IMG/VR virus record: IMGVR_UViG_3300024246_000004
Span: 27,446-91,445 of that record
DNA: 64,000 nucleotides
Strand: one strand, 5' to 3'
From: a virus
Taxonomy: Duplodnaviria; Heunggongvirae; Uroviricota; Caudoviricetes
The notes under the pieces were generated by a model, which was not told the origin of the DNA, ran no database searches, and worked only from the letters and a program-made list of their open reading frames with translations. The translations under genes were made by a program, and so were the position numbers. This document shows positions 4,632 through 47,597 of this stretch, one piece after another. Position 1 is the first letter of the stretch. Every line of letters starts with the position of its first letter.

Positions 4632-4661
4632 CCGCCGAGCCCGATCACTCGGCGGACCGGG
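4632..4661 (+). other. Strong hairpin (11-bp stem GGTCCGCCGAG / CTCGGCGGACC)
   Basis: Perfect inverted repeat in a non-coding spacer of the tRNA array. Confidence 0.45.
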
Positions 4662-4735
4662 AAGTCTGGCGACGGAGTTGGGCCAGACCGGGCGGGCTGA
4701 CGTGGGTTAGGCCTTCCACAAAGTAAACTGAATAC

Positions 4736-4808
4736 GCGCCTGTAGCTCAGCGGAGAGAGCGCCTCACTACGGATGAGGAGGCCGGGGGTTCGAATCCCTC
4801 CAGGCGCA
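4736..4808 (+). tRNA. tRNA-Arg(ACG)
   Basis: GCGCCTG-TA-GCTC-AGCGGAGAG-AGC; anticodon arm CCTCA-CTACGGA-TGAGG; T-loop TTCGAAT. Confidence 0.85.
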
Positions 4809-4809
4809 C

Positions 4810-5545: not shown

Positions 5546-5553
5546 TTTCCCGT

Positions 5554-6066: not shown

Positions 6067-6248
6067 CGAGGCTCTGAAAAAGCCTAGAGGCTGGATCGTT
6101 ACCAGTCGTTGCCACGCGGTACAAGCCTGCAAGAAGGCGAGTGCGCAGCTTCGTGTCATAGGCTGCCGAAGACCGATGGCCCTATCGGATGCCATGCTGG
6201 TCGGCTAAGCGAAGCCGCGTCCCCGGCTCGTACCCGGGGGCCGTACCT

Positions 6249-6339
6249 GGAGAGGTCGCCTAGTCCGGTCTATGGCGCCGACCTGCTAAGTCGGTGGGTT
6301 CCGCAAGGGGCCTCATGGGTTCGAATCCCATCCTCTCCG
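6249..6339 (+). tRNA. tRNA-Ser(GCT), long variable arm
   Basis: GGAGAGG/CCTCTCC; anticodon arm CCGAC-CTGCTAA-GTCGG; T-arm ATGGG-TTCGAAT-CCCAT. Confidence 0.8.
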
Positions 6340-6419
6340 CGCAAAACAGTTGGACAGCCCAGCGTGGATGAGATACGTTAGTTCTCGCAGGGGTTCGAGC
6401 CAGGGATAAGCTAGGCGGG

Positions 6420-6466
6420 CCTGTAAAGCCCTACCTTGGAGGTTCGAATCCTCCCGGGCCCACCAA
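6420..6466 (+). pseudogene. tRNA-like minihelix (acceptor GGGCCTG/CGGGCCC plus T-arm GGAGG-TTCGAAT-CCTCC) lacking D and anticodon arms
   Basis: Only 13 nt lie between the acceptor 5-prime strand and the T-arm. Confidence 0.35.
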
Positions 6467-6488
6467 ACCGAGCGAAAGGAGAGTACTG

Positions 6489-6671
6489 ATGGCCAGCAGA
6501 GAGACCAAGGAGCTCCTCGCGGCACTGGACCGGCACCGGGAGTACACGGCGGAGCAGGAACGGATCGCGCACGACAACCTGTTCCGCGTCACGGACCCCG
6601 TCGAGGGAGCCGTCTCGGTGAAGGACACCGGCAAGATCAAGAGGATCCTCAAGCGAACGCGGAACGGCTAG
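6489..6671 (+). CDS. Small hypothetical protein (60 aa)
   Basis: SD GAAAGGAGAG 7 nt upstream of the ATG. Confidence 0.55.
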   Translation: MASRETKELLAALDRHREYTAEQERIAHDNLFRVTDPVEGAVSVKDTGKIKRILKRTRNG

Positions 6672-6717
6672 CACTACCCGTAGTACGCTAATTGACAACT
6701 CCAGAGTGACGCGAAAT

Positions 6718-6788
6718 GCGGATGTAGCTCAATGGTAGAGCGCTACCTTGCCATGGTAGATACGCGAGTTCGATTCTCGTCATCCGCT
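6718..6788 (+). tRNA. tRNA-Gly(GCC)
   Basis: GCGGATG-TA-GCTC-AATGGTAG-AGC; anticodon loop TTGCCAT; U73. Confidence 0.85.
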
Positions 6789-6888
6789 CAACCCGGCGGC
6801 CAGTCTCAGCTCGAAACCCAGAGACCCAACGTCGCCGGACGAGGTGCCCAAGTACCCTCCGAGACTCAAACTCCTCGCGGCACCGCAT

Positions 6889-6963
6889 GTCCCCGTCGTC
6901 TAGCGGTTCCAGGACATCACCCTCTCAAGGTGAAAATCGCCGGTTCGAATCCGGTCGGGGATA
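6889..6963 (+). tRNA. tRNA-Glu(CTC)
   Basis: Glu-type D-arm GTCTAGCGGTTCCAGGAC; anticodon arm TCACC-CTCTCAA-GGTGA. Confidence 0.8.
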
Positions 6964-7017
6964 CTCTCCGGCAGCCAGAATGAGCAGGAAACCCAAGTAC
7001 AGTTCGCTGCCGGACAT

Positions 7018-7091
7018 GGCCCGTTCGTCTAGCGGCCGAGGATCCCACCCCTTCAAGGTGCGAGGCACGGGTTCGAATCCCGTACGGGCTA
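7018..7091 (+). tRNA. tRNA-Glu(TTC)
   Basis: Glu-type D-arm GTCTAGCGGCCGAGGAT; anticodon loop CCTTCAA; T-arm ACGGG-TTCGAAT-CCCGT. Confidence 0.75.
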
Positions 7092-7154
7092 CGGCGTCGC
7101 GGCCACGGCGACAATCGCGGTAGTGGGCGAGCAAGATGCCCGCACAGTGGCAGT

Positions 7155-7228
7155 GCTGTAGTGGCTCAATATGGCGGAGCGTCGCGCTTCCAACGCGAAG
7201 GTCGCAGGTTCGAACCCTGTCTACAGCG
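7155..7228 (+). tRNA. tRNA-Gly(TCC)
   Basis: GCTGTAG/CTACAGC; anticodon arm TCGCG-CTTCCAA-CGCGA. Confidence 0.8.
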
Positions 7229-7229
7229 C

Positions 7230-7301
7230 CGGAATGTGGGGTAATGGTCGCCCGCCTGCCTTGGGAGCAGGTCCACGCAGGTTCGATTCCTGTCATTCCG
7301 A
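7230..7301 (+). tRNA. tRNA-Pro(TGG)
   Basis: C1-G72 acceptor CGGAATG/CATTCCG with A73; anticodon arm CCTGC-CTTGGGA-GCAGG. Confidence 0.75.
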
Positions 7302-7416
7302 CGATCCAAGGGCAAGGATGAGAAGCGGGAACCCAAGGGTAGCGGACATGGTGAATGTATCTAGCCGAGCCGCTGAACTTTCCGTCGGCCAGATACGCCG
7401 GGGGAGCCGCAATCAA

Positions 7417-7490
<74 letters not shown>

Positions 7491-7500
7491 CGTACACTAT

Positions 7501-7573
7501 GCACCTGTGGCCGAGAGGCGAGGCGCTTCCCTGCAAAGGAAGAATGACCCCGGTTCAAATCCGGGCAGGTGCT
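7501..7573 (+). tRNA. tRNA-Cys(GCA)
   Basis: Perfect acceptor GCACCTG/CAGGTGC with U73; anticodon arm CTTCC-CTGCAAA-GGAAG. Confidence 0.8.
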
Positions 7574-7628
7574 CGATTCGGTGGCCATATACGGTACGAG
7601 ATCCACGCCAAGGCTCGCCACCGGACAC

Positions 7629-7699
7629 GCCCTTGTAGCTCAATGGCAGAGCACTCGTTTCGTAATCGAGGGACCGGCGTCCGATTCGTCGCAGGGGCT
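7629..7699 (+). tRNA. tRNA-Thr(CGT)
   Basis: GCCCTTG-TA-GCTC-AATGGCA-GAGC; anticodon loop TTCGTAA; T-loop TCCGATT. Confidence 0.65.
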
Positions 7700-7753
7700 C
7701 AGATCGGCAGCAATGTAGCTTTCGAAGACCATAACCGGCTCGCTGTCGGTCAT

Positions 7754-7826
7754 GGGGGTGTAGCTCAGGGGTTAGAGCGCTTCCCTGATAAGGAAGAGGT
7801 CGGAGGTTCAAATCCTCCCATCCCCA
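7754..7826 (+). tRNA. tRNA-Ile(GAT)
   Basis: GGGGGTG-TA-GCTC-AGGGGTTAG-AGC; anticodon arm CTTCC-CTGATAA-GGAAG. Confidence 0.85.
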
Positions 7827-7830
7827 CTTA

Positions 7831-7905
7831 GGGCCCGTAGCTCAGTCAGGTTAGAGCAGCTTCCTTTTAAGTAGCGGGTCGCAGGTTCGAATCCTGTCGG
7901 GCCCA
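7831..7905 (+). tRNA. tRNA-Lys(TTT)
   Basis: GGGCCCG/CGGGCCC; anticodon loop CTTTTAA; T-arm GCAGG-TTCGAAT-CCTGT. Confidence 0.75.
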
Positions 7906-7922
7906 CCCGCTAGACTCTTGCT

Positions 7923-8363
7923 GTGATCACCGGTAAGAGCTGTGGCAAGTGCGGTGAAGTGAAGAACCTTGAAGAATTCTCAAGGAACTCGCGTAGAAAA
8001 GATGGCCGCCAAACATGGTGCAAGAAATGTGCCCATGCACGCAGAAATGAATGGGCCAAAGAGAATCGCGATAAATGTCGGACTTACCGCCTCTACGACG
8101 CCCATGGAATCCGTATCGCCGACAAGCAGCGCATGTATGAAGAGCAAGGCGGCCTCTGTGCGGCCTGCCAGAAGAAGGAAGCTGTCGTAGTCGATCACGA
8201 CCATTCCTGCTGCCCCAACAACCGGGGCGGCTGTGGGAAGTGCGTGCGAGCGCTCCTTTGTAACCGCTGCAACCTCCTCGCGGGGTTCTTTGAGACCGAC
8301 CCGGAGGCTTGCGAGAGCGTCCAGGCGTATCTTTTGCGGTACAGTAAGACCAACCCTCCGTAA
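7923..8363 (+). CDS. Endonuclease VII-like (T4 gp49-type) nuclease
   Basis: N-terminal CGKCG Zn motif, central VVDHDHSCCP, then CNRCNLLAG: the signature of the Endonuclease_7 family. Confidence 0.7.
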   Translation: MITGKSCGKCGEVKNLEEFSRNSRRKDGRQTWCKKCAHARRNEWAKENRDKCRTYRLYDAHGIRIADKQRMYEEQGGLCAACQKKEAVVVDHDHSCCPNNRGGCGKCVRALLCNRCNLLAGFFETDPEACESVQAYLLRYSKTNPP

Positions 8364-8426
8364 CTCAGCGGCCAGAGTTGCGCCCTCTTAAGGCGAAGGT
8401 CGCCGGTTCGAATCCGGCCGGGGGGA
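8354..8426 (+). tRNA. tRNA-Lys(CTT)
   Basis: Acceptor CCCTCCG/CGGGGGG; D-arm ACTC-AGCGGCCA-GAGT; anticodon loop CTCTTAA; T-arm GCCGG-TTCGAAT-CCGGC; its 5-prime end overlaps the last codons of the endonuclease VII gene. Confidence 0.6.
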
Positions 8427-8529
8427 CGAGGCGTGCGGCACGCCGCGCGGAGATTAGGGCTAGCCCCCCAGGGGAGCCCCTCCAAAAAGCCAACTCCCTA
8501 TACTAGTTCGGGACGAGGCAGCCGCATAA

Positions 8530-8602
8530 GGGCCCGTAGCTCAGCTGGTAGAGCACTCGCCTCGCACGCGAGAGGTCCGGGGTTCGACTCCCCGCCGGTC
8601 CA
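8530..8602 (+). tRNA. tRNA-Ala(CGC)
   Basis: G3.U70 wobble in the acceptor (Ala identity element); anticodon arm CTCGC-CTCGCAC-GCGAG; T-loop TTCGACT. Confidence 0.75.
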
Positions 8603-8669
8603 CGATGCGTAGCGGCGCGCAACGGGCTAAGTAACCCGGAAGCCATGCTAGCCACTGGCAGCCGCGTAA

Positions 8670-8740
8670 GGGGTTGTAGCTCAACGGTGAGCACCTCGTT
8701 TGCATCGAGGCGGACGCGGGTTCGAATCCCGTCAACTCCA
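8670..8740 (+). tRNA. tRNA-Ala(TGC)
   Basis: G3.U70; anticodon arm CCTCG-TTTGCAT-CGAGG. Confidence 0.8.
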
Positions 8741-8876
8741 CTGGGCGGCATGCGGCATGCCGTGGGGAGCGCAGCTAGGAACTGCGCCGTCTGAATGAAG
8801 ACCACTCCCCGGAAGACGAAGGTAGGCAACCGCAAGGGTCCTAGCCTGAAGTGGGGAATCTGGAGTCAGCCGCATT

Positions 8877-8952
8877 GGGCCTATAGCTCAGCCCGGCAGA
8901 GCGCCCGCTCGGCAGGCGGGAGGTTTCGTCGGTTCGAATCCGACTAGGTCCA
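8877..8952 (+). tRNA. tRNA-Ala(GGC)
   Basis: G3.U70; anticodon arm CCCGC-TCGGCAG-GCGGG; T-arm GTCGG-TTCGAAT-CCGAC. Confidence 0.65.
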
Positions 8953-9160
8953 CTACCGCCGCGTGGTCGGCGGGGAGCGACGCATGTCGGAGATTGCGCG
9001 CTCGCAGGACAAGGCTTACCCGTGTTGGATTCCGACTAGGCACGGGAGGTAGCGTGTCCATCCGCACCGCCCCGCAACGGGCTGCCGGACCGGGTTGTGC
9101 CGGTTAGGCTGCAATACCGAGTGAGTCGCCCGGCACTCGTTAATCCCTACCGGCGAACCT

Positions 9161-9248
9161 GGAGAGGTCGGCCCCGCTGGCGGAGGCACTGTCCTGGAAT
9201 GGCAGCGGCCGTTGATTCGGTTCGTGGGTTCGATTCCCACTCTCTCCG
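9161..9248 (+). tRNA. tRNA-Ser(GGA), long variable arm
   Basis: GGAGAGG/TCTCTCC; anticodon arm CTGTC-CTGGAAT-GGCAG; T-loop TTCGATT. Confidence 0.7.
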
Positions 9249-9547
9249 CGAACTCGGCGACCAGTCTTGGAACGCAGCTCACTCTGCCTTCGTTGCCGAG
9301 TCTCACTGTCCGACAGCCAAGCGGTTCCGCGCACCATGTGCCGGGCGCTGTCGGGCTCCATGCGGGCCCTGGGGAGGTAACCTGACGGTCCACGGTGCAC
9401 CAGCGACCGTCAGCAGCTCCGTCCACTCGGAGCGCCCGCTCGATCGACAGCCATAGTGGCCTCGCACCCCGCGCTCCCTACGCTGTCGAGCTCAACCCGG
9501 TGGCCATAGCGAGAACCCTCCCACAGGACACTCCCGCCGCCGGTCGT

Positions 9548-9621
9548 GGTCCTGTAGAGCAGCTGGAGTGCTCGCCACCCTGTCAAGGTGGAGGTCGCGG
9601 GTTCAAGTCCCGTCAGGACCG
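9548..9621 (+). tRNA. tRNA-Asp(GTC)
   Basis: GGTCCTG/CAGGACC with G73; anticodon arm CCACC-CTGTCAA-GGTGG; T-loop TTCAAGT. Confidence 0.85.
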
Positions 9622-9625
9622 CTAA

Positions 9626-9698
9626 GGCGACGTAGCTCAGCGGATAGAGCGCTTCCCTCCGAAGGAAGAGGCCGTGGGTTCAAATCCCACCGTCGCCA
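9626..9698 (+). tRNA. tRNA-Arg(CCG)
   Basis: GGCGACG/CGTCGCC; anticodon arm CTTCC-CTCCGAA-GGAAG. Confidence 0.8.
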
Positions 9699-9699
9699 C

Positions 9700-9782
9700 G
9701 GAAGGTCCGACACTGGTGCGTCAAGCGTCTTCGAAAGGCGTGGCGGTGAAAGCCGTTAGCGGTTCGAGTCCGCTACCTTCCG
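9700..9782 (+). tRNA. tRNA-Ser(CGA), long variable arm
   Basis: GGAAGGT/ACCTTCC; anticodon loop TTCGAAA; T-arm AGCGG-TTCGAGT-CCGCT. Confidence 0.65.
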
Positions 9783-9834
9783 CTACCAGCAGCCGAGGTC
9801 AACGCGTATCCCAAAATCGTTCTGCTGCTGGTTT

Positions 9835-9918
9835 GGAGAGTTGCCGGAACGGTAACGGCGCCGCCTTGAAAGCGGACGGCAGGGAAACCTGGAGCAGGTT
9901 CGACCCCTGCACTCTCCG
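9835..9918 (+). tRNA. tRNA-Ser(TGA), long variable arm
   Basis: GGAGAGT/ACTCTCC; anticodon loop CTTGAAA; variable-arm hairpin CAGG-GAAA-CCTG; T-loop TTCGACC. Confidence 0.7.
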
Positions 9919-9923
9919 CGCGG

Positions 9924-9994
9924 TCCCCGCTAGTTCAATGGCAGAACGCTCGACTGTTAATCGAGAAGTACCTGGATCGATACCAGGGCGGGGA
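9924..9994 (+). tRNA. tRNA-Asn(GTT)
   Basis: TCCCCGC/GCGGGGA; anticodon arm CTCGA-CTGTTAA-TCGAG; unusual T-loop ATCGATA. Confidence 0.65.
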
Positions 9995-10012
9995 GCATGA
10001 AAGGGGGCGGTT

Positions 10013-11843: not shown

Positions 11844-11934
11844 GGGTTTGCAGGCGCTGTTCGACATGCTTGTGGAACTGTGCGCGAGCTGCCACGGATT
11901 CTGACGGTCACCCTCCTTCCCGGGCAGCTCCTTA

Positions 11935-12100
11935 AAGCTCGTCGGCCTAAGTCGTTCAAGGCTCCTTCGCGCGCGTTCGCCCATTTCATTCGAGGCTCCT
12001 TCAGTAATTCCTTGATTCAATTCAGTCGGGGCTCCTTCAGGCTCCTTCAGAATGTGTGCGTATCATTTGATTGAGGCTCCTTCTGGGCTCCTTCATGCAA
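11935..12100. repeat. Cluster of about 8 copies of GGCTCCTTC (minus-strand GAAGGAGCC) with irregular spacing
   Basis: Copies near 11957, 11991, 12032, 12041, 12075 and 12086, plus degenerate copies at 11915 and 11935; sits at the convergent junction of the rightward and leftward gene blocks. Confidence 0.6.
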
Positions 12101-12574
12101 TGTGCCCATATTATTCGCTCCGGCCCCCGTCCCTCCCGGCCGCCCCTCCATGATCGTCACGGGCTGTCGGCCGGTGCCGTCCCACGCCCATCCATGTCCG
12201 ATCATCAACCCGTTGACACGTAGGATGCTCGACGCCGCAGCAGCATGGCTGTGCGTCAACGGCAGTACATCCAGGCGGCGCGGTTCAGTGTCGTACATCC
12301 ACGCGCTCGGCCGGTAGCCCACCTGCGCCACGCGGTCTATGTAACCGAGTGGATGCGCGGTGCGTGATTCGAGCATGAGGAACCAGCGGGCCTGCCCGCC
12401 GCGACGCGTCTTGCGTACCGTGAGCCGTGGACCGTGCTCGGCGCACAAGTGCGCCACGGCAGCGTCATAGGCGCCGGAGAGCGAGCGGGAGCGTCCCCCG
12501 TGGGGGCGCGGAGCGGAGCATTTCCAGAACCACAGGACCCCGAACGGGTAGACGCGTGCGCGTTCGCGCGGCAT
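12047..12574 (-). CDS. Hypothetical protein; the C-terminus runs into the repeat cluster, so extent is uncertain
   Basis: Long open frame in the same orientation as the downstream block; no motif recognised. Confidence 0.3.
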   Translation of the reverse strand: MPRERARVYPFGVLWFWKCSAPRPHGGRSRSLSGAYDAAVAHLCAEHGPRLTVRKTRRGGQARWFLMLESRTAHPLGYIDRVAQVGYRPSAWMYDTEPRRLDVLPLTHSHAAAASSILRVNGLMIGHGWAWDGTGRQPVTIMEGRPGGTGAGANNMGTLHEGAQKEPQSNDTHTF

Positions 12575-12690
12575 GAGTTCGATCGGCGTGGGACTCCCCT
12601 TCCGTTGGACGGTTGGTTGACGGCTCGCACAGCGCCACAGAGCGCTGTTGACGGCCGGTTGGGCATCACCTTACCGGGGGACGCCCGGTA

Positions 12691-12716
12691 GCGCCGTAGG
12701 GACGTCCCTACGGCGC
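12691..12716. promoter_or_regulatory. 26-bp perfect palindrome GCGCCGTAGGGACGTCCCTACGGCGC next to a TTGACTAACGTAGCG promoter-like element
   Basis: Self-complementarity checked by hand. Confidence 0.55.
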
Positions 12717-12720
12717 TACG

Positions 12721-21348: not shown

Positions 21349-21744
21349 TTAGATGTAGCGGGCGTGGGACGGGCGGCGGGCGGGCATCCGCAGGCGCGGC
21401 ATGCTCGGGCGGCTCGCCACCGGCAGGCGGCGGTACCAGCGCACGCCCAGGAACAGGTACACGGGCACGGAGAAGTAGAACGCGGGGAGGATCAGGAACA
21501 GCAGCGAGACTTTCAGCCGCTTCGCTGCGACCGCGTGGCGCTGATTGAACGTCGGGCGCGGCGGGGCCACGGCGAACAGTCCGCGCCCGCCGACCGCGTT
21601 CACCTGGTACCCGGCGGAGGCGAGCAGCATGTGCGCCTGCCCGCTGACCACCGTGTTGGGGAACGCGAGCACGTATCCGCCGTTGGGGGACAGGCTCGCC
21701 TGGTGTGCGATGCCGAGTTCCGCGAGGATCCTCATCTGGGCCAT
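21349..21744 (-). CDS. Membrane protein
   Basis: SD GGAAGGCAACGATC-ATG; hydrophobic segments. Confidence 0.5.
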   Translation of the reverse strand: MAQMRILAELGIAHQASLSPNGGYVLAFPNTVVSGQAHMLLASAGYQVNAVGGRGLFAVAPPRPTFNQRHAVAAKRLKVSLLFLILPAFYFSVPVYLFLGVRWYRRLPVASRPSMPRLRMPARRPSHARYI

Positions 21745-23427: not shown

Positions 23428-23451
23428 GATCAGCCTTTCGGTCGGAAGCGG

Positions 23452-23492
23452 AACAAGGGCGAGACTAGTACTCGGCGCGTGATGCGTCAACC
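23452..23492 (-). promoter_or_regulatory. Sigma70-like promoter TTGACGCATCACGCGCCGAGTACTAGTC
   Basis: Same family; first promoter of the leftward block, divergent from the terminase operon. Confidence 0.55.
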
Positions 23493-23512
23493 GTGCAGGT
23501 GGAAGGGAAGAA

Positions 23513-24031
23513 ATGGCAGCACTACCCGCCGACGCCAAAGCCATGACACAGGTCGAGCGGCGCCACAAAGCCATCGAGATGCGCCGCGTCGGCATCCCCT
23601 GGGAGAAAATCGCCGAAGAATGCGGCTACTCCACCCCCGCCGTCGCAGCGGCCGACATCTACAAAGTACTCAGCGACCGCGTCCGGGAAATGGGCGACGC
23701 CGTCTCCGCGCTGCGCTCTTTGGAAGCCGACAAACTCGACGCCATGGAACGCGTCATCATCAACGTGATGCGCAAACCCCATATCCTTGCGCAGCAAGGC
23801 CGCATCATCATCGACCCCGCCACCGGGAAACCGGCAGAGGATCCGGGCCCCGTCTTCCAATGCGTAGACCGGCTCCTGCGCATCGCCGAACGCAGAGCGA
23901 AACTCCTCGGAATCGACAACCCCGTCAAAACGCAAGTCGAAATCAAGGCGGTGGGCGTTGACGCCGAAATTGCCGGAATCCTGGCAGGAATGGTCACCGG
24001 AAGAGAAGAAGAAACTCCTCGCGACGCTTAA
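23513..24031 (+). CDS. Terminase small subunit (putative)
   Basis: Position directly upstream of the large terminase; HTH-like N-terminus, oligomerisation-like C-terminus. Confidence 0.55.
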   Translation: MAALPADAKAMTQVERRHKAIEMRRVGIPWEKIAEECGYSTPAVAAADIYKVLSDRVREMGDAVSALRSLEADKLDAMERVIINVMRKPHILAQQGRIIIDPATGKPAEDPGPVFQCVDRLLRIAERRAKLLGIDNPVKTQVEIKAVGVDAEIAGILAGMVTGREEETPRDA

Positions 24032-25379
24032 ATTCGCCCAATGGCGTCAAGCCGCCCGCACCGACCAGCTACCCCCGCGCGGCCCGTGGGTCACCCTCTA
24101 CCTGCGCGGCGGACGCGGAAGCGGCAAAACATGGTCCGGAGGCCATATCCTCCTGGAGCGCGTCCTAGCCGACCCCGAACCGGGAGAATGGGCGGTCGTC
24201 GCACCGACGTACGAAGATGCGTGGGCCACCTGCTGCGAAGGCCCCAGCGGCATCCTCGCGGCACTGGGAACCAACGCCGTGCAGGTCAAACAGCACGACT
24301 CGCCCCTCGTACGGTACTGGAACCGCACCATGGGCGAACTACGCATGCGCAACGGACACCTCATCCGGTTCGCCTCCGCCGACGACGGAGCGCTGAGGAT
24401 CCAGGGCAAGAACCTCAAAGGCGTATGGGCCGACGAAATCGGCCTCTGGGACAAATGGCAGACCGCCTGGGACGAATCCATCCAATACGCGGTACGCATG
24501 GGCGACGCGATCCGCATCGTCACCGGCACACCCAAATCGAGCCGCAAAGCCCGCGAACTGATCAAACGGCTCATGCTCGACCCCGCCGTACACGTGCAAG
24601 TCCTGCGCACCGTAGACAACGCCGCCAACCTGAGCCCCGCGTTCATGGCCTCCGTCGTCGCCGCCGCGAAAGGCACCCGGCTAGAGCGGCAAGAACTCGA
24701 AGGAGAACTCCTCGAAGATGTAGACGGCGCACTGTGGACCCTGGAGATGATCGAACGCGGACGCGTAGACGAACACCCCGAACTGAGCCGCATCGTCGTC
24801 GCCGTAGACCCCGCCGTCACCGGCAGCGAAACCAGCGACGAATCGGGAATCGTCGTCGTCGGAGAACACCAAGGCCACGGCTACGTACTCGCCGACTACT
24901 CCATGGTCGGCTCACCCCAAGAAGTCATGGAGAAAGTCGTCTGGGCCTACCACGAACACCAAGCGGATAGGGTGCTCGCCGAAGTCAACAACGGCGGCGA
25001 CTACATCGGCACCCTGCTGCGCGTCGTCGATTCCTCCGTGCCCTACCAGGCCGTGAGGGCGACCAGAGGCAAACTGCTGCGCGCCGAACCGGTAGCGGCG
25101 CTCTACGAACAAGGCCGCATGCACCACGTCGGACGGTACCTCGATCTTGAAGAACAGATGATCGTCTGGCACCCCGACAGCTCGAAAAGCCCCGACCGCC
25201 TAGACGCATTGGCATGGGCCGTAGCAGGACTACGCACCCTCACCGCAGGATCATGGGCACAAGCCCACGGCATCGTCTACTGCGACGAATGCCAACAGCC
25301 ATTCATGATCAAACTACACCCGCTGAACTGCCCCAACTGCCGCACAACACACGGAAAAGGCACCGAAATAGGGAGCTGA
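23958..25379 (+). CDS. Terminase large subunit
   Basis: Walker A-like GGRGSGKT near the N-terminus and a nuclease-type C-terminal half; TTG start overlaps terS by 74 nt. Confidence 0.7.
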   Translation: MTPKLPESWQEWSPEEKKKLLATLKFAQWRQAARTDQLPPRGPWVTLYLRGGRGSGKTWSGGHILLERVLADPEPGEWAVVAPTYEDAWATCCEGPSGILAALGTNAVQVKQHDSPLVRYWNRTMGELRMRNGHLIRFASADDGALRIQGKNLKGVWADEIGLWDKWQTAWDESIQYAVRMGDAIRIVTGTPKSSRKARELIKRLMLDPAVHVQVLRTVDNAANLSPAFMASVVAAAKGTRLERQELEGELLEDVDGALWTLEMIERGRVDEHPELSRIVVAVDPAVTGSETSDESGIVVVGEHQGHGYVLADYSMVGSPQEVMEKVVWAYHEHQADRVLAEVNNGGDYIGTLLRVVDSSVPYQAVRATRGKLLRAEPVAALYEQGRMHHVGRYLDLEEQMIVWHPDSSKSPDRLDALAWAVAGLRTLTAGSWAQAHGIVYCDECQQPFMIKLHPLNCPNCRTTHGKGTEIGS

Positions 25380-25640
25380 ATGGCCACCCTCACCTACAAC
25401 GGCGGACCCGCCCACGGCACCCAACACACCGTGCCCGGGAAACCACCCAACACCCGGTACTACGCACCCCCAGGCGACCGAGCACAAGCCGGGCAATGGT
25501 TACAACTAGGGCGTTATAGCCTGAAATGGAAACAAGCAGACGGAACGTATACGTATACGTTCAGCGGATATTCGGACGTCCTAGGACCCAAACCGGCCGT
25601 CGGAGCGAACGGGGGAGAGCCGATCGAGGGGTGGTCATAG
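25380..25640 (+). CDS. Hypothetical protein
   Basis: ATG abuts the terL stop (TGAATG). Confidence 0.45.
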   Translation: MATLTYNGGPAHGTQHTVPGKPPNTRYYAPPGDRAQAGQWLQLGRYSLKWKQADGTYTYTFSGYSDVLGPKPAVGANGGEPIEGWS

Positions 25641-26640
25641 TCGCACGTTTATGCAGGTGGCACTACATAAAGGCCTGTTTGGCAGTGTGTTGACTCACTG
25701 GGAAGTACGTCTATTCCGGGCATTGCGGGCGCGAATCAGGGTTCAACTACATGCGCCGACGGGGGGCGCGACGTCACGACCTGCGCAAAGTCACCTTCGC
25801 TCACCGGCGGGTAAGCAACGGAGGCGTGAGCGACTGGAGTAGGCCGGTGGCGGGCATCCCCTCAGTACCGCGTACGCGTGCCTGCGTTCCGCGCGTACGA
25901 ACGCAGGCACGCGAGACTGGGGTACTCCAGTAGGCGCCCCCCAAGGGCCCTCCCTGCGCTTGTGCTGCATAAGAGTGATTATGCATGAGATGGAATGCCC
26001 ACATAGGGCGCAATACGGGCATCACGTTCCATGATTCGCTCACATGTGCGACTGGCGCACTCCAGTGGAAGCCCCCTACGGGCCGCTGTGCCACTGGCAC
26101 ACCCCAGTAGGCGCTGTGTACCGAGGCACGGGTGTACGGCGCTCCACGGTGCCCTACAGGGCCAGGAATCGCACTCCACTGGGCTACTCCACTGGCACAC
26201 TCCAGTGGAAACACCCCCCACCCCACTGGAGTATTCCAGTATTGAGGTACTCCACTTGGGCACATACATGCAGGTGGGGCCACTGGTGTACCCCAGTAGG
26301 GGGCCTACATATAGGCATGCATACACACTGGGGTACCACAGTAGGGCCACCTGTGTACGTACGGGTGTGTGCACTGTGGGTGTACACACATAGGCCCCCA
26401 TGGGACAGGCACACGGGGGTCCTACGTACATCCATGCATGGGCATGCCGCCTAGGTGCGTGCACGTTCACGTGTGGGCATGCGGGGGTGGCACCGGCTCT
26501 CACCTGCATGTGCCCGTGCGTGTGTCAACCTGTGAGTTCGCGCACGTCAAGGGGATGATAACTCAACCTCAAGGGGCTGATGTGGGCACCGCGCGGCGTC
26601 CCCCCGTTCTACGTGGTTCCCCCATCCGCCCTTCAGCTTA
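25641..26640. repeat. About 1 kb non-coding, lower-GC, repeat-dense region (CCACTGG/CCAGTGG, CCCAGTAGG, TTATGCA motifs; 14-bp-stem hairpin at 25871-25908)
   Basis: More than 12 copies of (A/C)CTCCAGTGG / CCACTGG within 26040-26350; no credible ORF. Confidence 0.55.
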
Positions 26641-26664
26641 ACGTATCCGTGTTACACTTCCCCC

Positions 26665-26919
26665 GTGCCCGACTCCCAGATCCGCAGCGAGCTCATCACC
26701 CGCCTCGCGTACGCCATCCGCAACCGGATGCCCGACGCCCCGGATCCGGAGCTGCTGGCACGGGTGTCCCTGGATGCGTTGCCGGACGGCACGCAGTGGC
26801 TGATGCGCATGGCGGAGCACTACCAGGCGCGGGCGGATGCGGCGGAGGCGCTGCTGGTGGCGAGGGTTGAGCCTGTGAGGCACAATCCGCTGTGTCGGCT
26901 GTTGTTGCGGCGCCGCTAG
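26665..26919 (+). CDS. Hypothetical protein
   Basis: GTG start 17 nt downstream of a TTAACGTATCC motif. Confidence 0.4.
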   Translation: MPDSQIRSELITRLAYAIRNRMPDAPDPELLARVSLDALPDGTQWLMRMAEHYQARADAAEALLVARVEPVRHNPLCRLLLRRR

Positions 26920-31464: not shown

Positions 31465-31888
31465 CGCACGGGTGGTGGCCGTAGGCGAAGAACCACTTGT
31501 TGGCCTTGCGGAACTTCCCGTTCAGCCAGAAACCCCAGGAGCGCCTCGGGCGGCCGGTGACCAGGACCGTCCACGCCCCGCCCGCGTCCGGCACGACCGT
31601 GTGGCGGTGCAGTGCCGGGCGATACCGCACTGAGCCCGCCCGCAGGTGCTCGTCGCCGTCAGGGTTCTTATCTACGTACCCCCCGCGCAGCACTAGCGTA
31701 ACAAACCACCACGGGTGATCATGGAAGGCCCGGTCGTCGTCGGGACCCAGCCAGTGGTGGACGCGCAGCGAGCCGAGCGGCGTTTCCAGGCGCCAGCGGA
31801 TGACGTACGGGCATTCCGGCAGGCCGAGCTTCTCGGCCCACCTCACCAGTCCCAGGGGATGATTTCGAGTCACCGACCTCTGCTTCAT
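31439..31888 (-). CDS. Hypothetical protein
   Basis: ORF (HDHPWWF...); overlaps the ArfB start. Confidence 0.4.
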   Translation of the reverse strand: MKQRSVTRNHPLGLVRWAEKLGLPECPYVIRWRLETPLGSLRVHHWLGPDDDRAFHDHPWWFVTLVLRGGYVDKNPDGDEHLRAGSVRYRPALHRHTVVPDAGGAWTVLVTGRPRRSWGFWLNGKFRKANKWFFAYGHHPCDDGRRERT

Positions 31889-31956
31889 CTGAGCAGCGCT
31901 CTGCCTCTGAGCTACCCTGAGTCGCCGCACACCTCCGTGGCGCGTCGGCTCCCACC

Positions 31957-42822: not shown

Positions 42823-43158
42823 TCACGGAACGCGGGGTTTCCGGTCCCTGCCTACGGGGTTGCGCCGATTCTTGACCACCGATTCGGGGTCGTATCCGAG
42901 AGCCGCGATCTCTCCCAGATAAATCTGCTCGTACTCCTCGTAATGGCGCCGCCGCAGGATACCCAGCGCCCGGTCGCGCGCCTGGCACAGCGCTTGCGTC
43001 CGCGCCATGCGGGCTTGGACGACTGCGGCGCCTGGGCCCTTGCGTTCCTTGAGGCGGCACTCGTAGCAGAGGGTCTGGTCCCCCTGGTACTCGCGCAGCG
43101 GCCGGTCGGCGAAGCACCTGCTGCACGACTGGGTCTGCGGCTCCCCGCGCCCCTGCAT
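42823..43158 (-). CDS. Zn-finger-like hypothetical protein
   Basis: CSRCF...CYEC; start uncertain. Confidence 0.35.
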   Translation of the reverse strand: MQGRGEPQTQSCSRCFADRPLREYQGDQTLCYECRLKERKGPGAAVVQARMARTQALCQARDRALGILRRRHYEEYEQIYLGEIAALGYDPESVVKNRRNPVGRDRKPRVP

Positions 43159-43838
43159 CACGCCGCCCCCCAGTAGTGCCTGCGCACCCGCAGCAGCCAC
43201 GCCTGAGCCGCCAGCGCGTCCGGCTCAGGCGGCAGCGCCGGTGTAGCGCTGTCGAACAGCATGCTGTAGGCCTCGACCATCTTGCGCGCCTTCTCGATGT
43301 CGCCCCCCGCCACGGCATCGCCGAACGCGTGATAGTCCTGCGGGTTCTCCAGCCTGATCGGCAGGCTGCCGGTCGTGTACAGGTGGAGGCCCTGGTGGCA
43401 CAGCCGCATCAGGTGCCGGGCGTGCTTCGCGACCCGGCGCTCCGGGATGTCCGCGTCGAGAGACGTGCCGCCGCGCTGCTCCAGCCGGTGGAACTGCGCT
43501 CTGGCGTACCCGAGGTACCGGTAGCGCACCTGCCCGGCGCTCAGGAACGCCTCCCGAATGTCCACCAGATCGGCGCCCAGCGGGTTGATGATCTCGTACT
43601 CCCCGAGGAACATCAGCTCCAGGACGGTGGGGTTGCACTCCAGGGCGAGCCGCACGTACTTCGCGGCCTCGTGGAACGCGACGTCCGGGTTATGGCCGTC
43701 CAGCGTCTCCTTGGGCCTGCCCAGACCGAGGATCAGCTGGGTGGGGTAGGCGAACACCCCGAGCCGGTCCACATCCGAACCCGGTCCGGCCAGGCCGTAT
43801 GCGGTCGAGCCCACGACCCCCGAGAGCAGGACCTTCAT
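43158..43838 (-). CDS. Pol-beta-superfamily nucleotidyltransferase
   Basis: N-terminal GSTAYGLAGPGSDVDRLGVF fits the hG[GS]...[DE]h[DE] minimal NTase motif; the upstream 120 codons of the track ORF are low-complexity and excluded. Confidence 0.5.
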   Translation of the reverse strand: MKVLLSGVVGSTAYGLAGPGSDVDRLGVFAYPTQLILGLGRPKETLDGHNPDVAFHEAAKYVRLALECNPTVLELMFLGEYEIINPLGADLVDIREAFLSAGQVRYRYLGYARAQFHRLEQRGGTSLDADIPERRVAKHARHLMRLCHQGLHLYTTGSLPIRLENPQDYHAFGDAVAGGDIEKARKMVEAYSMLFDSATPALPPEPDALAAQAWLLRVRRHYWGAA

Positions 43839-43840
43839 GT

Positions 43841-44383
43841 CTAGTTCGTTGGACACCCGGTCACCCCCACCTCGGTCCCGATCACGGGGTAGTCGATGCT
43901 GCGGCCGTCGGACGTGAGGCCGGTGATCAGGTAGTCCAGTTCGTACGTTCCGTTCGTGCAGGTCGGGGCGTTCACGATGTACTGCCACGCGGCGCCCGGA
44001 CCCACGCCCGGCGGGTACTCGACCGTGGAACTGGCGATTTCCGTCAGCTTCTTGCCCTCGATCTTGGCCAGGGTCAGTTCGGTCGTCTGCTGGCCCGGGA
44101 TCTGGGCCGGGGTGTCGCAGTAGATGTCCACGCGCCCTTGGATCTGCGGGTACACGTCCGTGGTGACGGAGATCCCCGAAGGGAACGGAACGGGTTTGTC
44201 GTGGCACTCGTAGTGCGGGTCCGGTCCGGGCGCGGCGTCTGCTTTGGTCACCGGCGCGGGAGCGGCCCCGCCGACGGTGGCGTGCGCACTGGCGCTAGCC
44301 CCGGAGTGGTTGACGAGTTGGCTGGTGCAGCCGGTCAGCGCCAGAGCCAACGCGACCGCCATGATCTTGGTCCTGATCTTCAT
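43841..44383 (-). CDS. Lipoprotein (signal peptide plus lipobox LTGC)
   Basis: SD AAGGAGGACC then ATG; MKIRTKIMAVALALALTGCTS... Confidence 0.6.
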   Translation of the reverse strand: MKIRTKIMAVALALALTGCTSQLVNHSGASASAHATVGGAAPAPVTKADAAPGPDPHYECHDKPVPFPSGISVTTDVYPQIQGRVDIYCDTPAQIPGQQTTELTLAKIEGKKLTEIASSTVEYPPGVGPGAAWQYIVNAPTCTNGTYELDYLITGLTSDGRSIDYPVIGTEVGVTGCPTN

Positions 44384-44391
44384 GGTCCTCC

Positions 44392-44772
44392 TTAGTCCCA
44401 CCAGCGTGGGAAGTGTTCGGCGAAGCGCATCATCGCGTCCTTCGCCTCCTCGCGGACCCGCAACTGGGTCTCCACGTCGCGCTTGAACTTGTCCTGGGCG
44501 TATTCCATGAGCGGCCGGGCGATGCCGATGAAGTATTCCCGGGTGCCCTCCTCGCCCATCTCCTCGAAGTAGCCGGAGCCCTCGTGGGCGAACTTGAGAG
44601 CCGCCCGCGCGACGACCTCGGCGATGTACTGGTCGAAGGCCCACCAGTCGAAGACGGAGAACCCGTCCTCGGCCCGCTGGGTGCGATGTTTCGCCACGTC
44701 GGCCGCAGTCCAGTCTTCGGGCTGCTCGCGGTCGCCGTGGAAGTCGGGCACGCCGTACAGGGTGTCGGTCAC
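44392..44772 (-). CDS. Hypothetical protein
   Basis: SD AAGGAGAACGAGAGGCC then GTG. Confidence 0.45.
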   Translation of the reverse strand: MTDTLYGVPDFHGDREQPEDWTAADVAKHRTQRAEDGFSVFDWWAFDQYIAEVVARAALKFAHEGSGYFEEMGEEGTREYFIGIARPLMEYAQDKFKRDVETQLRVREEAKDAMMRFAEHFPRWWD

Positions 44773-45209
44773 GGCCTCTCGTTCTCCTTGGCCATCTCGC
44801 CCAGCTGCTTCTCCAGGTCCGCGACGTACGCGGCGTCGGCAGCGGCTTTCTTCTTGCGGGCTGCTTCGACCTCGGCCGGAGCTAGCGGCGGATCGTCGGT
44901 GACGAACACGTAGATGCCGTAGCCGACCAGCGCGACCGGCCAGAAGAACCCGTGGAAGATGGCGATCCTCGTCAGGGCGTCGTTGCTGTAAACGCGGCCC
45001 GATTCGACGCCGTCCTTCTCCTCCCACCACAGGACGTTGTAGCGGCACTTCGTGCAGTTGCCGTTGTGGTTGCGCATGGTCTGGCGCTTCGGGCAGGCCG
45101 ACTTCTTGGCTTCGTGGAGTCGGTAGCGGCGGTAGAGCAGCCGGGACGCGTAGGCCCAGAGCACCAGGTCGAGCAGCGGGATTGCGACCCCCAGTACGGC
45201 TGCGACCAT
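44769..45209 (-). CDS. Membrane protein with Cys cluster
   Basis: ORF; hydrophobic segments. Confidence 0.45.
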   Translation of the reverse strand: MVAAVLGVAIPLLDLVLWAYASRLLYRRYRLHEAKKSACPKRQTMRNHNGNCTKCRYNVLWWEEKDGVESGRVYSNDALTRIAIFHGFFWPVALVGYGIYVFVTDDPPLAPAEVEAARKKKAAADAAYVADLEKQLGEMAKENERP

Positions 45210-45424
45210 TATCGCACCCCCTTTTCTTCCAGTTCGCGGATATTGCGCCTGATCGATGAGAGCGTGTTCAAGCTGCTGCGCACGTCGGAGGGTGACGTGG
45301 ATATAGGCCCCACGTAGACCCCCTTGAAGGTTACGCGCAGGTGCTTGCCGCGTTTGTGGTGCGTGATCTCGCAGCCCATCTCTCTGATGGTTGCAACGAG
45401 GTCGCGATCGATGTGACGGGACAT
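45209..45424 (-). CDS. Small basic protein, possibly HicA-like
   Basis: ...GCEITHHKRGKHLRVTFKG... loosely resembles HicA/YcfA mRNA-interferase folds. Confidence 0.3.
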   Translation of the reverse strand: MSRHIDRDLVATIREMGCEITHHKRGKHLRVTFKGVYVGPISTSPSDVRSSLNTLSSIRRNIRELEEKGVR

Positions 45425-45436
45425 GGGCCTGCCCTT

Positions 45437-45478
45437 CTCGGGTGGGGTGTACGGGACTAACGTATCACGTACACCCCA
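45437..45478 (-). terminator. 13-bp-stem hairpin GGTGGGGTGTACG / CGTACACCCCACC enclosing the ACTAACGTATCAC motif in its loop
   Basis: Seen directly; lies between the pnkp stop and the next leftward gene. Confidence 0.5.
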
Positions 45479-45490
45479 CCAGCGCCAGGC

Positions 45491-46390
45491 CTAGAAGGCT
45501 CCGAAAGCCACCTGCGGACAGAAGATGCCCATGCCGCGCCACAGCCTGACCAGTCGGTTGCGGTCGTCCAGCATCGCCTGGAAGTTGTAGCGGTGCCGCA
45601 CGAACTTGTCAAACATCTCCAACTTCACCACGTCGTCAGGTCGGTCGTCGCCCGGCTCGCGTGTGTGGAACTCGCGGTAGAACAGGCCGTTTTTCGCCAA
45701 CCAGCGTTCGCGCTGCTCCTTGAACTCGCCCTTGCCGCCCGACAGGAGCAATACGTCGAAACCCGCGTCGCGGTACAGCCCCAGCAGGTGCGCCACCGGC
45801 ACGTTGACCGCGTCCGTCTCGATCTTGTCGAACTCGAAAGGCCCGCGCGCCACATGTAGCGCCAGCGTCCCGTCGAGGTCGCAGCCGACCGCCTTGGGCA
45901 GCGACTCGTCGGGCACGTACGGCAGCGCCACCGGCCGGTCGTTCATCCACTCGGTGGTCAGCCGCCAGCCGCCCTTGCGAGCGCCTTCCATATCCTTGGC
46001 GAGCTTATGGATCACATCCCTGCCGACGGTGCCGGTCCGACGCATCATGTCGCGTCGGACGCACTCCTCGACCGGCACATCCGTCAAGTCGTGCACCTCG
46101 AAGCGCGCCTCGGGCAGCAGGATGAAGTTGTCCTTGTAGAGCCGGGGCAGCTTGCGGTTCAGGTGCGTATTGTCGAGCACGATGTCGCTTCCCGCGCGGG
46201 CGACCGCCAGCGCGCCCTCCAGCATCGCTGTGACGGCCAGGCGCTCCCGGTCCCTCGACCAGTTTTCGCCGGTGAAACCGAGCATCGCCCTGTACTCGTC
46301 CAGGTTGAAACGCGGCACGCCCAGCGACCGCGCTAGAGTGGTCTTCCCGGACGCCGGGAGCCCTGTCGTCACATGCAGAGTTTGTGCCAT
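45491..46390 (-). CDS. Polynucleotide kinase-phosphatase (Pnkp: P-loop 5-prime kinase plus HAD 3-prime phosphatase)
   Basis: N-terminal Walker A GLPASGKTT; C-terminal HAD motif I DLDGTLA; SD GAAGGAGAGTG-ATG. Confidence 0.75.
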   Translation of the reverse strand: MAQTLHVTTGLPASGKTTLARSLGVPRFNLDEYRAMLGFTGENWSRDRERLAVTAMLEGALAVARAGSDIVLDNTHLNRKLPRLYKDNFILLPEARFEVHDLTDVPVEECVRRDMMRRTGTVGRDVIHKLAKDMEGARKGGWRLTTEWMNDRPVALPYVPDESLPKAVGCDLDGTLALHVARGPFEFDKIETDAVNVPVAHLLGLYRDAGFDVLLLSGGKGEFKEQRERWLAKNGLFYREFHTREPGDDRPDDVVKLEMFDKFVRHRYNFQAMLDDRNRLVRLWRGMGIFCPQVAFGAF

Positions 46391-47517: not shown

Positions 47518-47597
47518 GACTGCCCCCTTCATGGATTGCGGCGTGAGGATCATGGGTTTCGAGAGTACTGTGGCCGCAATGGGGACTAACGTATACC

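What the first reader, a model, noticed from the sequence alone, without database searches (positions are those of the whole stretch)
25641..26640. About 1 kb repeat-dense, lower-GC non-coding region immediately downstream of the terminase genes
No credible ORF. It holds more than 12 copies of CCACTGG/CCAGTGG-containing motifs, several CCCAGTAGG and TTATGCA copies, a 14-bp-stem perfect hairpin (25871-25908) and TGCATAAGAGTGATTATGCA. It is a candidate packaging (pac/cos) site, replication origin or structured non-coding RNA locus. Its position next to terS/terL favours a packaging role.
Basis: seen in the sequence. Interest (0 to 1): 0.6.

Follow-up and report, generated by a model that had tools for sequence, protein, structure and literature searches.

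The report
Palindrome array beside phage terminase genes
A 1-kb gene-free stretch just after the DNA-packaging genes of an uncultured, tRNA-rich actinobacterial phage carries a conserved array of nine 16-bp palindromic protein-binding sites, and it most likely marks where the phage genome is recognised and cut for packaging, though this is not proven.

Summary
Window 25,641-26,664 has no coding signal and no protein-level conservation. It holds nine copies of a 16-bp dyad, consensus ACTGGRGTAYNCCAGT. All nine matches in the 64-kb window (1 mismatch or fewer) lie in 25,833-26,342.

The same layout recurs in seven independent metagenomic relatives with TerL about 80-90% identical. In order it is terS-like, TerL, a clade-specific 86-aa gene, conserved block A, an AT-rich CATAA-N6-TTATG dyad, the palindrome array, a site-free 320-400 nt with conserved blocks, then a promoter-like motif. 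Across the eight phages, sites occur at 6.9 per kb in the gaps against 0.02 per kb elsewhere.

In four relatives compared by blastn, DNA homology stops at the gap's right edge. The gap is therefore inherited with the terminase cassette.

The layout mirrors the T7 concatemer junction. Cultured phages with distantly related TerL have roughly 590-bp terminal repeats.

A more origin-like element, six phased GGCTCCTTC repeats at 47% GC, lies at about 12 kb.

Best reading: a packaging-recognition or terminus region (confidence about 0.4). Rivals are an origin, a regulatory boundary, a DNA-organising site and an ncRNA (no support for the last). Termini could not be mapped.

The parts
23513..24031 (+). 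terS-like gene (172 aa): N-terminal helix-turn-helix followed by a long helical hairpin. It overlaps the start of TerL.
   Evidence: Gene call. Pfam HTH_23, weak, and PHROG 645. AlphaFold model with pLDDT 78; the top five PDB matches are the small terminases of G20c and P74-26, E 0.016-0.09. 67-82% identical in seven relatives.
23970..25379 (+). Large terminase (TerL), with a C-terminal CxxC...CxxC zinc ribbon.
   Evidence: Pfam Terminase_6N/6C and PHROG terminase families. Weak pointers to the T7-type nuclease domain. Zinc ribbon read directly from the sequence.
25380..25640 (+). g86, a small clade-specific gene of unknown function. It is present in every phage that has the array and was not detected in those that lack it.
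   Evidence: Protein-level conservation of 41-53% in seven relatives. Not detected in L020-L023. No hit in any family library or in the PDB. The structure model is unusable, pLDDT 50.
25641..26664 (.). The whole gene-free region, from the g86 stop codon to the start codon of the next gene.
   Evidence: Flat GC frame plot. No conserved ORF. The relatives have gaps of 0.8-1.0 kb.
25778..25815 (.). Block A, GACCTGCGCAAAGTCAC...CTCACCGGCGGGTAAG. [quoted passage not shown]
   Evidence: Nearly invariant in the five-way alignment. The GACCTGCGGAAAGTCAC half is found in L042-L044, with 3 or fewer mismatches. No significant fold, z = +1.2.
25875..25913 (.). GC-rich hairpin with a perfect 15-bp stem and a 9-nt loop. 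It is a possible terminator of the terminase operon and is not universal in the clade.
   Evidence: -21.6 kcal/mol, z = -4.4. A similar fold in L017 is significant (z = -3.9). The folds in L001 and L027 are not significant, and the hairpin is absent from L018.
25966..25985 (.). AT-rich dyad TGCATAA-N6-TTATGCA.
   Evidence: Present in all eight phages, 160-330 nt into the gap. The core CATAA-N6-TTATG is kept. The outer arms change on both sides, from TG...CA to CCCCA...TGGGG.
25833..26342 (.). Array of nine 16-bp palindromic sites starting at 25833, 25916, 26051, 26093, 26178, 26191, 26225, 26282 and 26327. Consensus ACTGGRGTAYNCCAGT. A half-site, TATTGAGGTACTCCA, lies at 26240-26254.
   Evidence: There are 51 sites in eight gaps against 3 in 146 kb outside. 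The outer 5-bp arms are almost invariant. At least three sites are conserved in position.
26343..26635 (.). Right part of the gap, free of palindromic sites. It holds conserved blocks: GTGTGTCAAC (26520-26529), CAAGGGGATGATAA (26548-26561), TCAAGGGGCTGAT (26569-26581) and CGCGCGGCGTCCCCCC...TTCTACG (26590-26613).
   Evidence: Five-way alignment. The last 320-400 nt of every gap has no site. GAGATGATA is found in L042-L044.
26636..26667 (+). Right boundary: GCTTAACGTATCC (the first plus-strand copy of the polar motif), then the -10-like TACACT (26653-26658), 6 nt, and the GTG start of the 84-aa gene. This is a leaderless-type promoter arrangement.
   Evidence: Read from the sequence. The same arrangement occurs in L001 and L017. 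The motif marks the gap's right edge in all eight phages.

Best explanation
The gap is a cis-acting DNA region that belongs to the terminase module. It is most likely the packaging-recognition and genome-terminus region, equivalent to a concatemer junction. In this model the nine sequence-conserved 16-bp dyads are binding sites for a dimeric or multimeric DNA-binding protein, either the HTH-bearing small terminase or the clade-specific g86. That protein assembles terminase on replicated DNA. Cutting then happens nearby, in or next to one of the conserved non-palindromic blocks, and produces a short direct terminal repeat, cohesive ends or a pac start. The strong hairpins would end the late terminase transcript. 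The promoter at the right edge would start rightward transcription of the first genes to enter the cell.

Shown here: the array, its conservation, its linkage to the cassette, and the TerS-like fold. Inferred: who binds the sites, that cutting occurs here, and the type of genome end.
For: 1. The array is highly specific. All nine window matches lie in 510 bp. Across eight phages there are 51 sites in the gaps against 3 in 146 kb elsewhere.
2. The arms ACTGG/CCAGT are nearly invariant over 51 copies, which points to sequence-specific protein recognition.
3. Module linkage. In all eight clade members the order terS-TerL-g86-gap is kept. In L001, L017, L018 and L027 the next 2 kb share no DNA homology, while terS and TerL align over more than 90% and the gap keeps conserved islands. 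A cis site that must match its terminase is expected to be inherited with it.
4. The upstream 172-aa protein is TerS-like, with an N-terminal HTH.
5. T7 has the same layout: terS, TerL, the small gene 19.5, then a 1,163-bp gene-free junction. That junction holds the 160-bp terminal repeat, CCTAAAG repeat arrays on both sides of it, and the early promoters.
6. The cultured phages with related TerL are only 34-37% identical, but they package genomes with 588-589-bp terminal repeats lying in gene-poor DNA.
7. A better origin candidate lies elsewhere in the window.
8. A genome-wide polar 10-mer reverses orientation across this locus in every relative that has copies on both sides, as expected if this is a genome-level landmark.
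Against: - There is no direct evidence of termini. No read data were available, and no contig of any relative ends in the gap.
- The IMG/VR relative behaves as a circular assembly, which fits any end type.
- Known pac and cosB sites lie in or upstream of terS, not 1.6 kb downstream of it.
- The Tank and Odyssey395 repeats contain no palindrome array.
- Relatives with 64-67% TerL identity have neither the gap nor the array. The array is therefore not a general requirement of this terminase family.
- One of those relatives sits inside a 272-kb Streptomyces contig. If that is a prophage, a short-repeat strategy is less likely for the lineage.
- Site spacing shows no helical phasing.
Confidence: 0.42

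Rival explanations
1. Regulatory boundary or hub. The gap separates the late terminase operon from the rightward early genes. The hairpins terminate transcription. The palindromes are operators for a phage regulator such as g86 or a winged-helix protein, which times or insulates the adjacent promoter or sequesters a factor.
For: Strong hairpins lie downstream of g86. A promoter-like motif with a leaderless-type -10 sits at the right edge in L001, L017 and the window. 16-bp dyads are typical operators. A MarR/ArsR-like gene lies 1.7 kb to the right.
Against: The nearest palindrome is 300-400 nt from the only promoter-like element, and the scan found no sigma-70-type promoter inside the gap. Five to nine operators spread over 500 bp with no overlapping promoter would be unusual. 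No homologue of the MarR-like gene was found in any relative locus. In L018 and L027 the right-edge motif is followed by the 3' end of a minus-strand gene, not by a plus-strand gene.
Confidence: 0.2
2. Replication origin. The dyads are initiator-binding iterons, as in the lambda origin, and the AT-rich CATAA dyad region is where the DNA unwinds.
For: Repeated dyad sites with lower GC: 52% minima over 100 nt, and a 20-nt AT-rich dyad. The region is a non-coding landmark where a polar motif flips.
Against: A more classical element lies at 11,960-12,094. It has six identical direct repeats at helically phased spacings, GC falls to 47% there, and it is conserved in L001's phage. No replication genes were found among the neighbours that were scanned. 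The gap is linked to the terminase genes, not to an initiator. The polar motif does not flip at the 12-kb element, so the flip says nothing about replication.
Confidence: 0.15
3. DNA-organising site. This would be either a centromere-like (parS-type) array that loads a clamp or condensing protein, or an injection-stop or anchoring signal of the kind recalled from memory for phage T5.
For: The sites are 16-bp palindromes, the format of parS. ParB-like genes sit next to the terminase genes in Tank and Odyssey395. The portal has a sub-threshold ParB_N-like C-terminal domain.
Against: No ParB with an HTH domain and no ParA was found in the window. The portal hit is below every threshold and has no DNA-reading domain. 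No plasmid-like lifestyle is evident. The T5 comparison rests on memory only.
Confidence: 0.08
4. Structured non-coding RNA locus, or a long structured 3' UTR of the terminase transcript.
For: Many local hairpins fold better than shuffled sequence.
Against: No Rfam family matches, even at E up to 1. The palindrome arms keep their sequence in 51 copies instead of covarying. Only 12-32% of the gap aligns between relatives, as short islands. The largest hairpin is missing in L018.
Confidence: 0.03

Closest known systems
Phage T7 concatemer junction (terminal repeat, flanking short-repeat arrays, pac signals, early promoters)
   Same: The gene order matches: terS, TerL, a small ORF, then about 1.1 kb of gene-free DNA, then rightward promoters and small early genes. 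Both have arrays of a short repeated motif in the gene-free DNA.
   Different: The T7 repeats are direct 7-mers (CCTAAAG), not 16-bp palindromes. T7 TerL is only a sub-threshold match. A terminal repeat has not been shown here. This phage is three times larger, at about 119-121 kb.
Short direct-terminal-repeat actinophages with related TerL (Arthrobacter phages Tank, Wilde and Odyssey395)
   Same: TerL is 34-37% identical. They have a homologous terS-like gene in PHROG 645. Their genome ends lie in about 0.7-0.9 kb of gene-free DNA with 588-589-bp repeats.
   Different: Their repeats contain no palindrome array. Their terminase genes lie 5-7 kb inside the left end rather than next to the gene-free DNA.
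Lambda cosB (gpNu1 R sites) and the pac sites of SPP1, P1 and P22 (from established knowledge)
   Same: Multiple small-terminase binding sites clustered next to the cut site and close to the terminase genes.
   Different: Those sites lie within or upstream of terS, number 3-7, and are not perfect dyads. Here nine dyads lie downstream of TerL and g86.
Lambda-type iteron origin (from established knowledge)
   Same: Several repeated sites with internal dyad symmetry next to a stretch of lower GC.
   Different: The gap does not lie in or beside an initiator gene. A separate direct-repeat and AT-rich element exists at about 12 kb.
ParB-parS centromeres (from established knowledge)
   Same: 16-bp palindromic sites present in several copies.
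   Different: No cognate ParB or ParA is present. The consensus is unrelated to the chromosomal parS sequence. The paired-site pattern was not found in one genome from each of 185,579 bacterial and archaeal species.

Membership tests
Terminal-repeat packaging junction (T7-like) | The same sequence is present at both physical ends of virion DNA. | not testable with these tools
   No reads or virion DNA were available. Contigs read straight through the gap.
Terminal-repeat packaging junction (T7-like) | A gene-free junction directly downstream of terS and TerL (plus a small ORF), followed by rightward promoters. | tested here: met
   for the window; for T7.
Terminal-repeat packaging junction (T7-like) | Arrays of short repeats in the junction. 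| tested here: inconclusive
   An array is present, but it consists of palindromic 16-mers, whereas T7 has direct 7-mers.
Terminal-repeat packaging junction (T7-like) | TerL belongs to a lineage that packages terminal-repeat genomes. | tested here: inconclusive
   The nearest cultured relatives (34-37% identity) have 588-589-bp repeats. A 64% relative lies inside a Streptomyces contig whose end type is unknown.
Lambda-type cos site | terS-binding sites lie between the nick site and the terS gene, upstream of terS. | tested here: not met
   The array is downstream of TerL and g86. Only 85 nt separate terS from the divergent minus-strand gene.
Lambda-type cos site | Cohesive single-stranded ends at a symmetric nick site. 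| not testable with these tools
   This needs virion DNA ends.
Headful pac site (P22, SPP1, P1 type) | The site lies within or immediately beside the terS gene. | tested here: not met
   The array starts 1.8 kb after the end of terS.
Iteron-type replication origin | Three or more repeated initiator-binding sites. | tested here: met
   Nine sites. Repeated sites are not specific to origins.
Iteron-type replication origin | An adjacent AT-rich unwinding element. | tested here: inconclusive
   The minimum GC is 52% per 100 nt, and there is a 20-nt AT-rich dyad. The 12-kb element reaches 47%.
Iteron-type replication origin | Linkage to initiator or replication genes. | tested here: not met
   The neighbours are the terminase genes and small genes with no family match. 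The gap is inherited with the terminase cassette.
ParB-parS centromere | A cognate ParB (HTH plus ParB_N domains), usually with ParA, encoded nearby. | tested here: not met
   The only hit is a sub-threshold ParB_N-like stretch at the portal C-terminus.
Known RNA family (Rfam) | A covariance-model match at or near the gathering score. | tested here: not met
   The only match is a chance microRNA hit, 18.7 bits against a 57-bit threshold.
Small terminase (for the 172-aa protein) | An N-terminal HTH, a helical oligomerisation core, and a gene adjacent to TerL. | tested here: met
   The fold-match E-values are marginal (0.016-0.09), and no sequence family names it a terminase.

The most novel reading that the evidence does not exclude
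A previously undescribed packaging or genome-polarity system in a clade of roughly 120-kb tRNA-rich actinophages. It would have two parts. The first is a centromere-like array of 16-bp perfect-dyad sites, read by TerS or by the clade-specific g86, that defines the genome start and end. The second is a genome-wide 10-mer, TAACGTATC(C/A), that points away from this locus on both arms whatever the local gene strand. The phage chromosome would then carry an orientation code anchored at the packaging site.
Probability: 0.15. Interest if true: 0.7.

Novelty: new variant of a known kind. Interest (0 to 1): 0.45.

Why it matters
Packaging signals and genome ends are essentially uncharacterised for large, uncultured actinobacterial phages. 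Here is a well-defined, conserved set of binding sites beside a TerS-like protein, with a clear consensus and eight natural variants. That gives a directly testable candidate for how such a phage recognises its own DNA. It would also help to orient and complete metagenomic phage genomes of this clade. The polar 10-mer anchored at the same locus hints at a genome-wide orientation signal worth testing.

Tried and rejected
- **GenBank phages:** DNA searches with the region (near and distant modes) found nothing.
- **IMG/VR:** scans with conserved blocks found only one contig.
- **Paired-dyad pattern:** none in the genome collection or IMG/VR. The array is therefore not a host regulon or a common prophage feature.
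- **TerL in the genome collection:** no relative found.
- **Literature:** a search for the palindrome sequence, and for similar phages or packaging sites, gave nothing usable.
- **GC skew:** no clear turning point at the gap.
- **Contig ends as termini:** three assemblies of one sample break at window 64,000, but another sample reads through into an overlapping gene. This is an assembly break, not a genome end.
- **g86:** no homologues outside the clade, no family or PDB hit, and a single-sequence model with pLDDT 50, which was discarded.
- **Helical phasing of the sites:** not significant.
- **TGCAGGTGG motif:** three of the four exact copies lie upstream of terS or in the gap. This is too weak to interpret.
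- **Micro-ORF starting at GATGATAA:** it is similar in the window, L001 and L017 but is cut short by a stop codon in L018 and L027 (read). Rejected as coding.
- **First identity comparison:** my first global-alignment comparison was uninformative because the shuffled baseline was 0.73. I replaced it with blastn coverage.
- **MarR-like neighbour as the binding protein:** no homologue was found in any relative locus.
- **More distant relatives:** those with TerL 64-67% identical have no analogous array near their terminase genes.

Full report
**Source and setting.** The window is 65.8% GC and phage-like. It has 36 tRNA genes at 1,093-9,996 (two further minus-strand ARAGORN calls look spurious), tRNA-repair genes at 43-54 kb, and portal and capsid genes from 54 kb. 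It is the reverse complement of positions 1-64,000 of a 91,433-bp metagenomic contig, ERZ27256701 k141_554652. GenBank phages hold no related DNA, and the best TerL identity there is 43%. A TerL relative at 64% identity lies in a Streptomyces sp. genome contig, which points to an actinomycete host.

**Checking the observation.** TerL is at 23,970-25,379.
- Upstream, and overlapping its start, is a 172-aa gene. It has a weak N-terminal HTH match. Its AlphaFold model (pLDDT 78) finds the small terminases of G20c and P74-26 as the five best PDB matches, so terS is a reasonable label.
- Downstream is an 86-aa gene, g86 (25,380-25,640).
- The gene-free stretch then runs to the GTG at 26,665. It shows no codon-position GC periodicity. 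Its ORFs are not conserved as proteins.
Nine copies with 1 mismatch or fewer occur in the window, and all lie in 25,833-26,342. Only 1.9 were expected, and no shuffle reached 9.
- The hairpin has a perfect 15-bp stem at 25,875-25,913. TGCATAAGAGTGATTATGCA is at 25,966-25,985.

**Comparative evidence.** Protein searches and contig look-ups recovered seven independent relatives with TerL about 80-90% identical: L001, L017, L018/L019, L027, L042, L043 and L044. All share the following order:
1. terS, TerL and g86.
2. Block A (GACCTGCGGAAAGTCAC, usually followed by ...GGCCGGTAAG).
3. In most, a GC-rich hairpin.
4. An AT-rich CATAA-N6-TTATG dyad whose outer arms change on both sides between lineages.
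5. Four to nine copies of the 16-bp dyad.
6. A site-free 320-400 nt with conserved blocks.
7. GCTTAACGTATC at the right edge.

Pooled over the eight phages there are 51 dyads in 7.4 kb of gaps and 3 in 146 kb outside. The arm bases are almost invariant, and the consensus is ACTGGRGTAYNCCAGT. Sequence that stays the same in so many copies indicates a sequence-specific protein site, not just a hairpin.

By blastn against L001, L017, L018 and L027, terS and TerL align over more than 90% at 72-78% identity. The gap aligns only in islands (12-32% covered). The 2 kb to the right align nowhere. L042, compared at protein level only, does share several right-flank genes with the window. The array is therefore part of the terminase module.

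More distant relatives (TerL 64-67%) lack g86, the gap and the array. The paired-dyad pattern is absent from one genome for each of 185,579 bacterial and archaeal species and from IMG/VR.

**Weighing functions.**
- *Packaging or termini.* The module linkage and the TerS-like neighbour support this. So does the match to the T7 layout: terS, TerL and gene 19.5, then a 1,163-bp gene-free junction. That junction holds the 160-bp terminal repeat, CCTAAAG arrays and the early promoters. Cultured phages with related TerL have 588-589-bp terminal repeats in gene-poor DNA.
- *Origin.* A second non-coding element at 11,960-12,094 weakens this. It has six identical GGCTCCTTC direct repeats spaced 34, 36, 10, 35 and 11 bp apart, and GC falls to 47%. 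It is conserved at the same relative position in L001's phage. Its distance to TerL across the contig ends equals that in the window, which also shows that the 118,920-bp IMG/VR contig behaves as a circular assembly.
- *Regulation.* Possible, but the dyads lie 300 nt or more from the only promoter-like element.
- *ncRNA.* No support.
- *What is missing.* Termini cannot be mapped without reads, and no contig ends in the gap. The packaging reading therefore stays an inference, at a confidence of about 0.4.

**A related observation.** The 10-mer TAACGTATC(C/A) occurs 22 times in the window against about 1 expected.
- Every copy left of terS is on the minus strand, and every copy from the gap's right edge onward is on the plus strand.
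- This holds whatever the local coding strand is. It also holds in the relatives, where the pooled count is 14 minus on the left and 43 plus on the right.
- Some copies are clear promoters, with TTGACG, 17 nt, then TAACGT. Others sit between convergent genes or between two minus-strand genes.
- The flip lies somewhere between 22,763 and 26,639. It marks the terminase and gap locus as a genome-level landmark, but it does not separate the hypotheses.

**Verdict.** The feature is real and conserved. It is a cis-acting protein-binding region tied to the terminase genes, most likely a packaging-recognition and terminus region with an unusual palindrome-array design. It is a new variant of a known kind and of moderate interest.

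Noticed in passing
window 11,905-12,110 (also L033, which is IMG/VR contig positions 2,606-4,058): An iteron-like element. Six exact GGCTCCTTC direct repeats lie on one strand at 11960, 11994, 12030, 12040, 12075 and 12086, with AT-rich spacers, and GC falls to 47%. There is no other exact copy in the 64 kb. It is conserved at the same relative position in a relative. It is a candidate replication origin. The reverse complement, GAAGGAGCC, also resembles a ribosome-binding site.
   Followed up: partly
window 966-60,882 (22 copies); L001, L017, L018, L027, L042-L044: The polar 10-mer TAACGTATC(C/A). Every copy left of terS is on the minus strand and every copy right of the gap is on the plus strand, whatever the local gene strand. 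The pooled count in eight phages is 14 minus on the left and 43 plus on the right. The copies examined lie in intergenic or tRNA-spacer DNA. Both strands carry -10-like hexamers. It may be a promoter or operator element with a genome-wide orientation rule, and it recalls (from memory) the 'stoperators' of cluster A mycobacteriophages.
   Followed up: partly
window 23,450-25,640: The terminase cassette differs in composition from its surroundings: GC 0.58-0.64 against 0.66-0.72, and AT skew +0.25 to +0.47. The g86 gene has almost no third-position GC bias even though it is conserved as a protein. This suggests a separate evolutionary history or a different expression regime.
   Followed up: no
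window 25,275-25,379: TerL ends in a CxxC-N13-CxxC zinc ribbon (VYCDECQQ...NCPNCRTTH). One database homologue is annotated as a fusion with ribosomal protein S27AE.
   Followed up: no
window 54,273-57,695: The portal protein is unusually long, about 1,120-1,140 aa. Its C-terminal stretch resembles a ParB/Srx N-domain (DPIVVVRVPGKNKYQVADGWHR). The match is below threshold in Pfam, PHROGs and the PDB.
   Followed up: partly
L042 10,455-12,926: In the relative on the 120.8-kb contig, a minus-strand HNH endonuclease gene sits between terS and TerL. The first 45 or so TerL residues are encoded about 1.1 kb upstream of the rest. This looks like a homing-endonuclease or intron-type insertion in the terminase gene.
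   Followed up: no
L017 10,905-11,017; L018 10,680-10,787; L027 5,170-5,290: A conserved element of about 100 nt follows GGCTTAACGTACCTGCTACAC (ATGrGCGGyTTyGGCACCCCAGGGGG...CCCCAGCTCC...). It may be a small RNA or a tRNA-like gene on the minus strand. Two contigs from one sample end inside it.
   Followed up: no
window 1,093-9,996 and 43,158-54,231: 36 tRNA genes on one strand, together with a tRNA-repair and maturation set: two RNA ligases, a Thg1-like tRNA-His guanylyltransferase, an RlaP nucleotidyltransferase and a metallophosphoesterase. An RF-1-domain protein lies at about 31.1-31.5 kb.
   Followed up: no
window 64,000 (the contig end): Three assemblies of the same sample (ENA, JGI, Logan) all break at this position inside the structural module, while a contig from another sample reads through. 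This is probably strain variation or a repeat, not a genome end.
   Followed up: yes
window 21,554-21,655 and 31,849-31,921 (minus strand): ARAGORN calls two extra tRNAs here (a 102-nt tRNA-Gly and a tRNA-Ile). Rfam does not support them, and they overlap called protein genes. They are probably false positives.
   Followed up: no
window 12,688-12,719: A perfect 32-bp palindrome, GTAGCGCCGTAGGGAC/GTCCCTACGGCGCTAC, lies between minus-strand genes. It is probably a bidirectional terminator.
   Followed up: no
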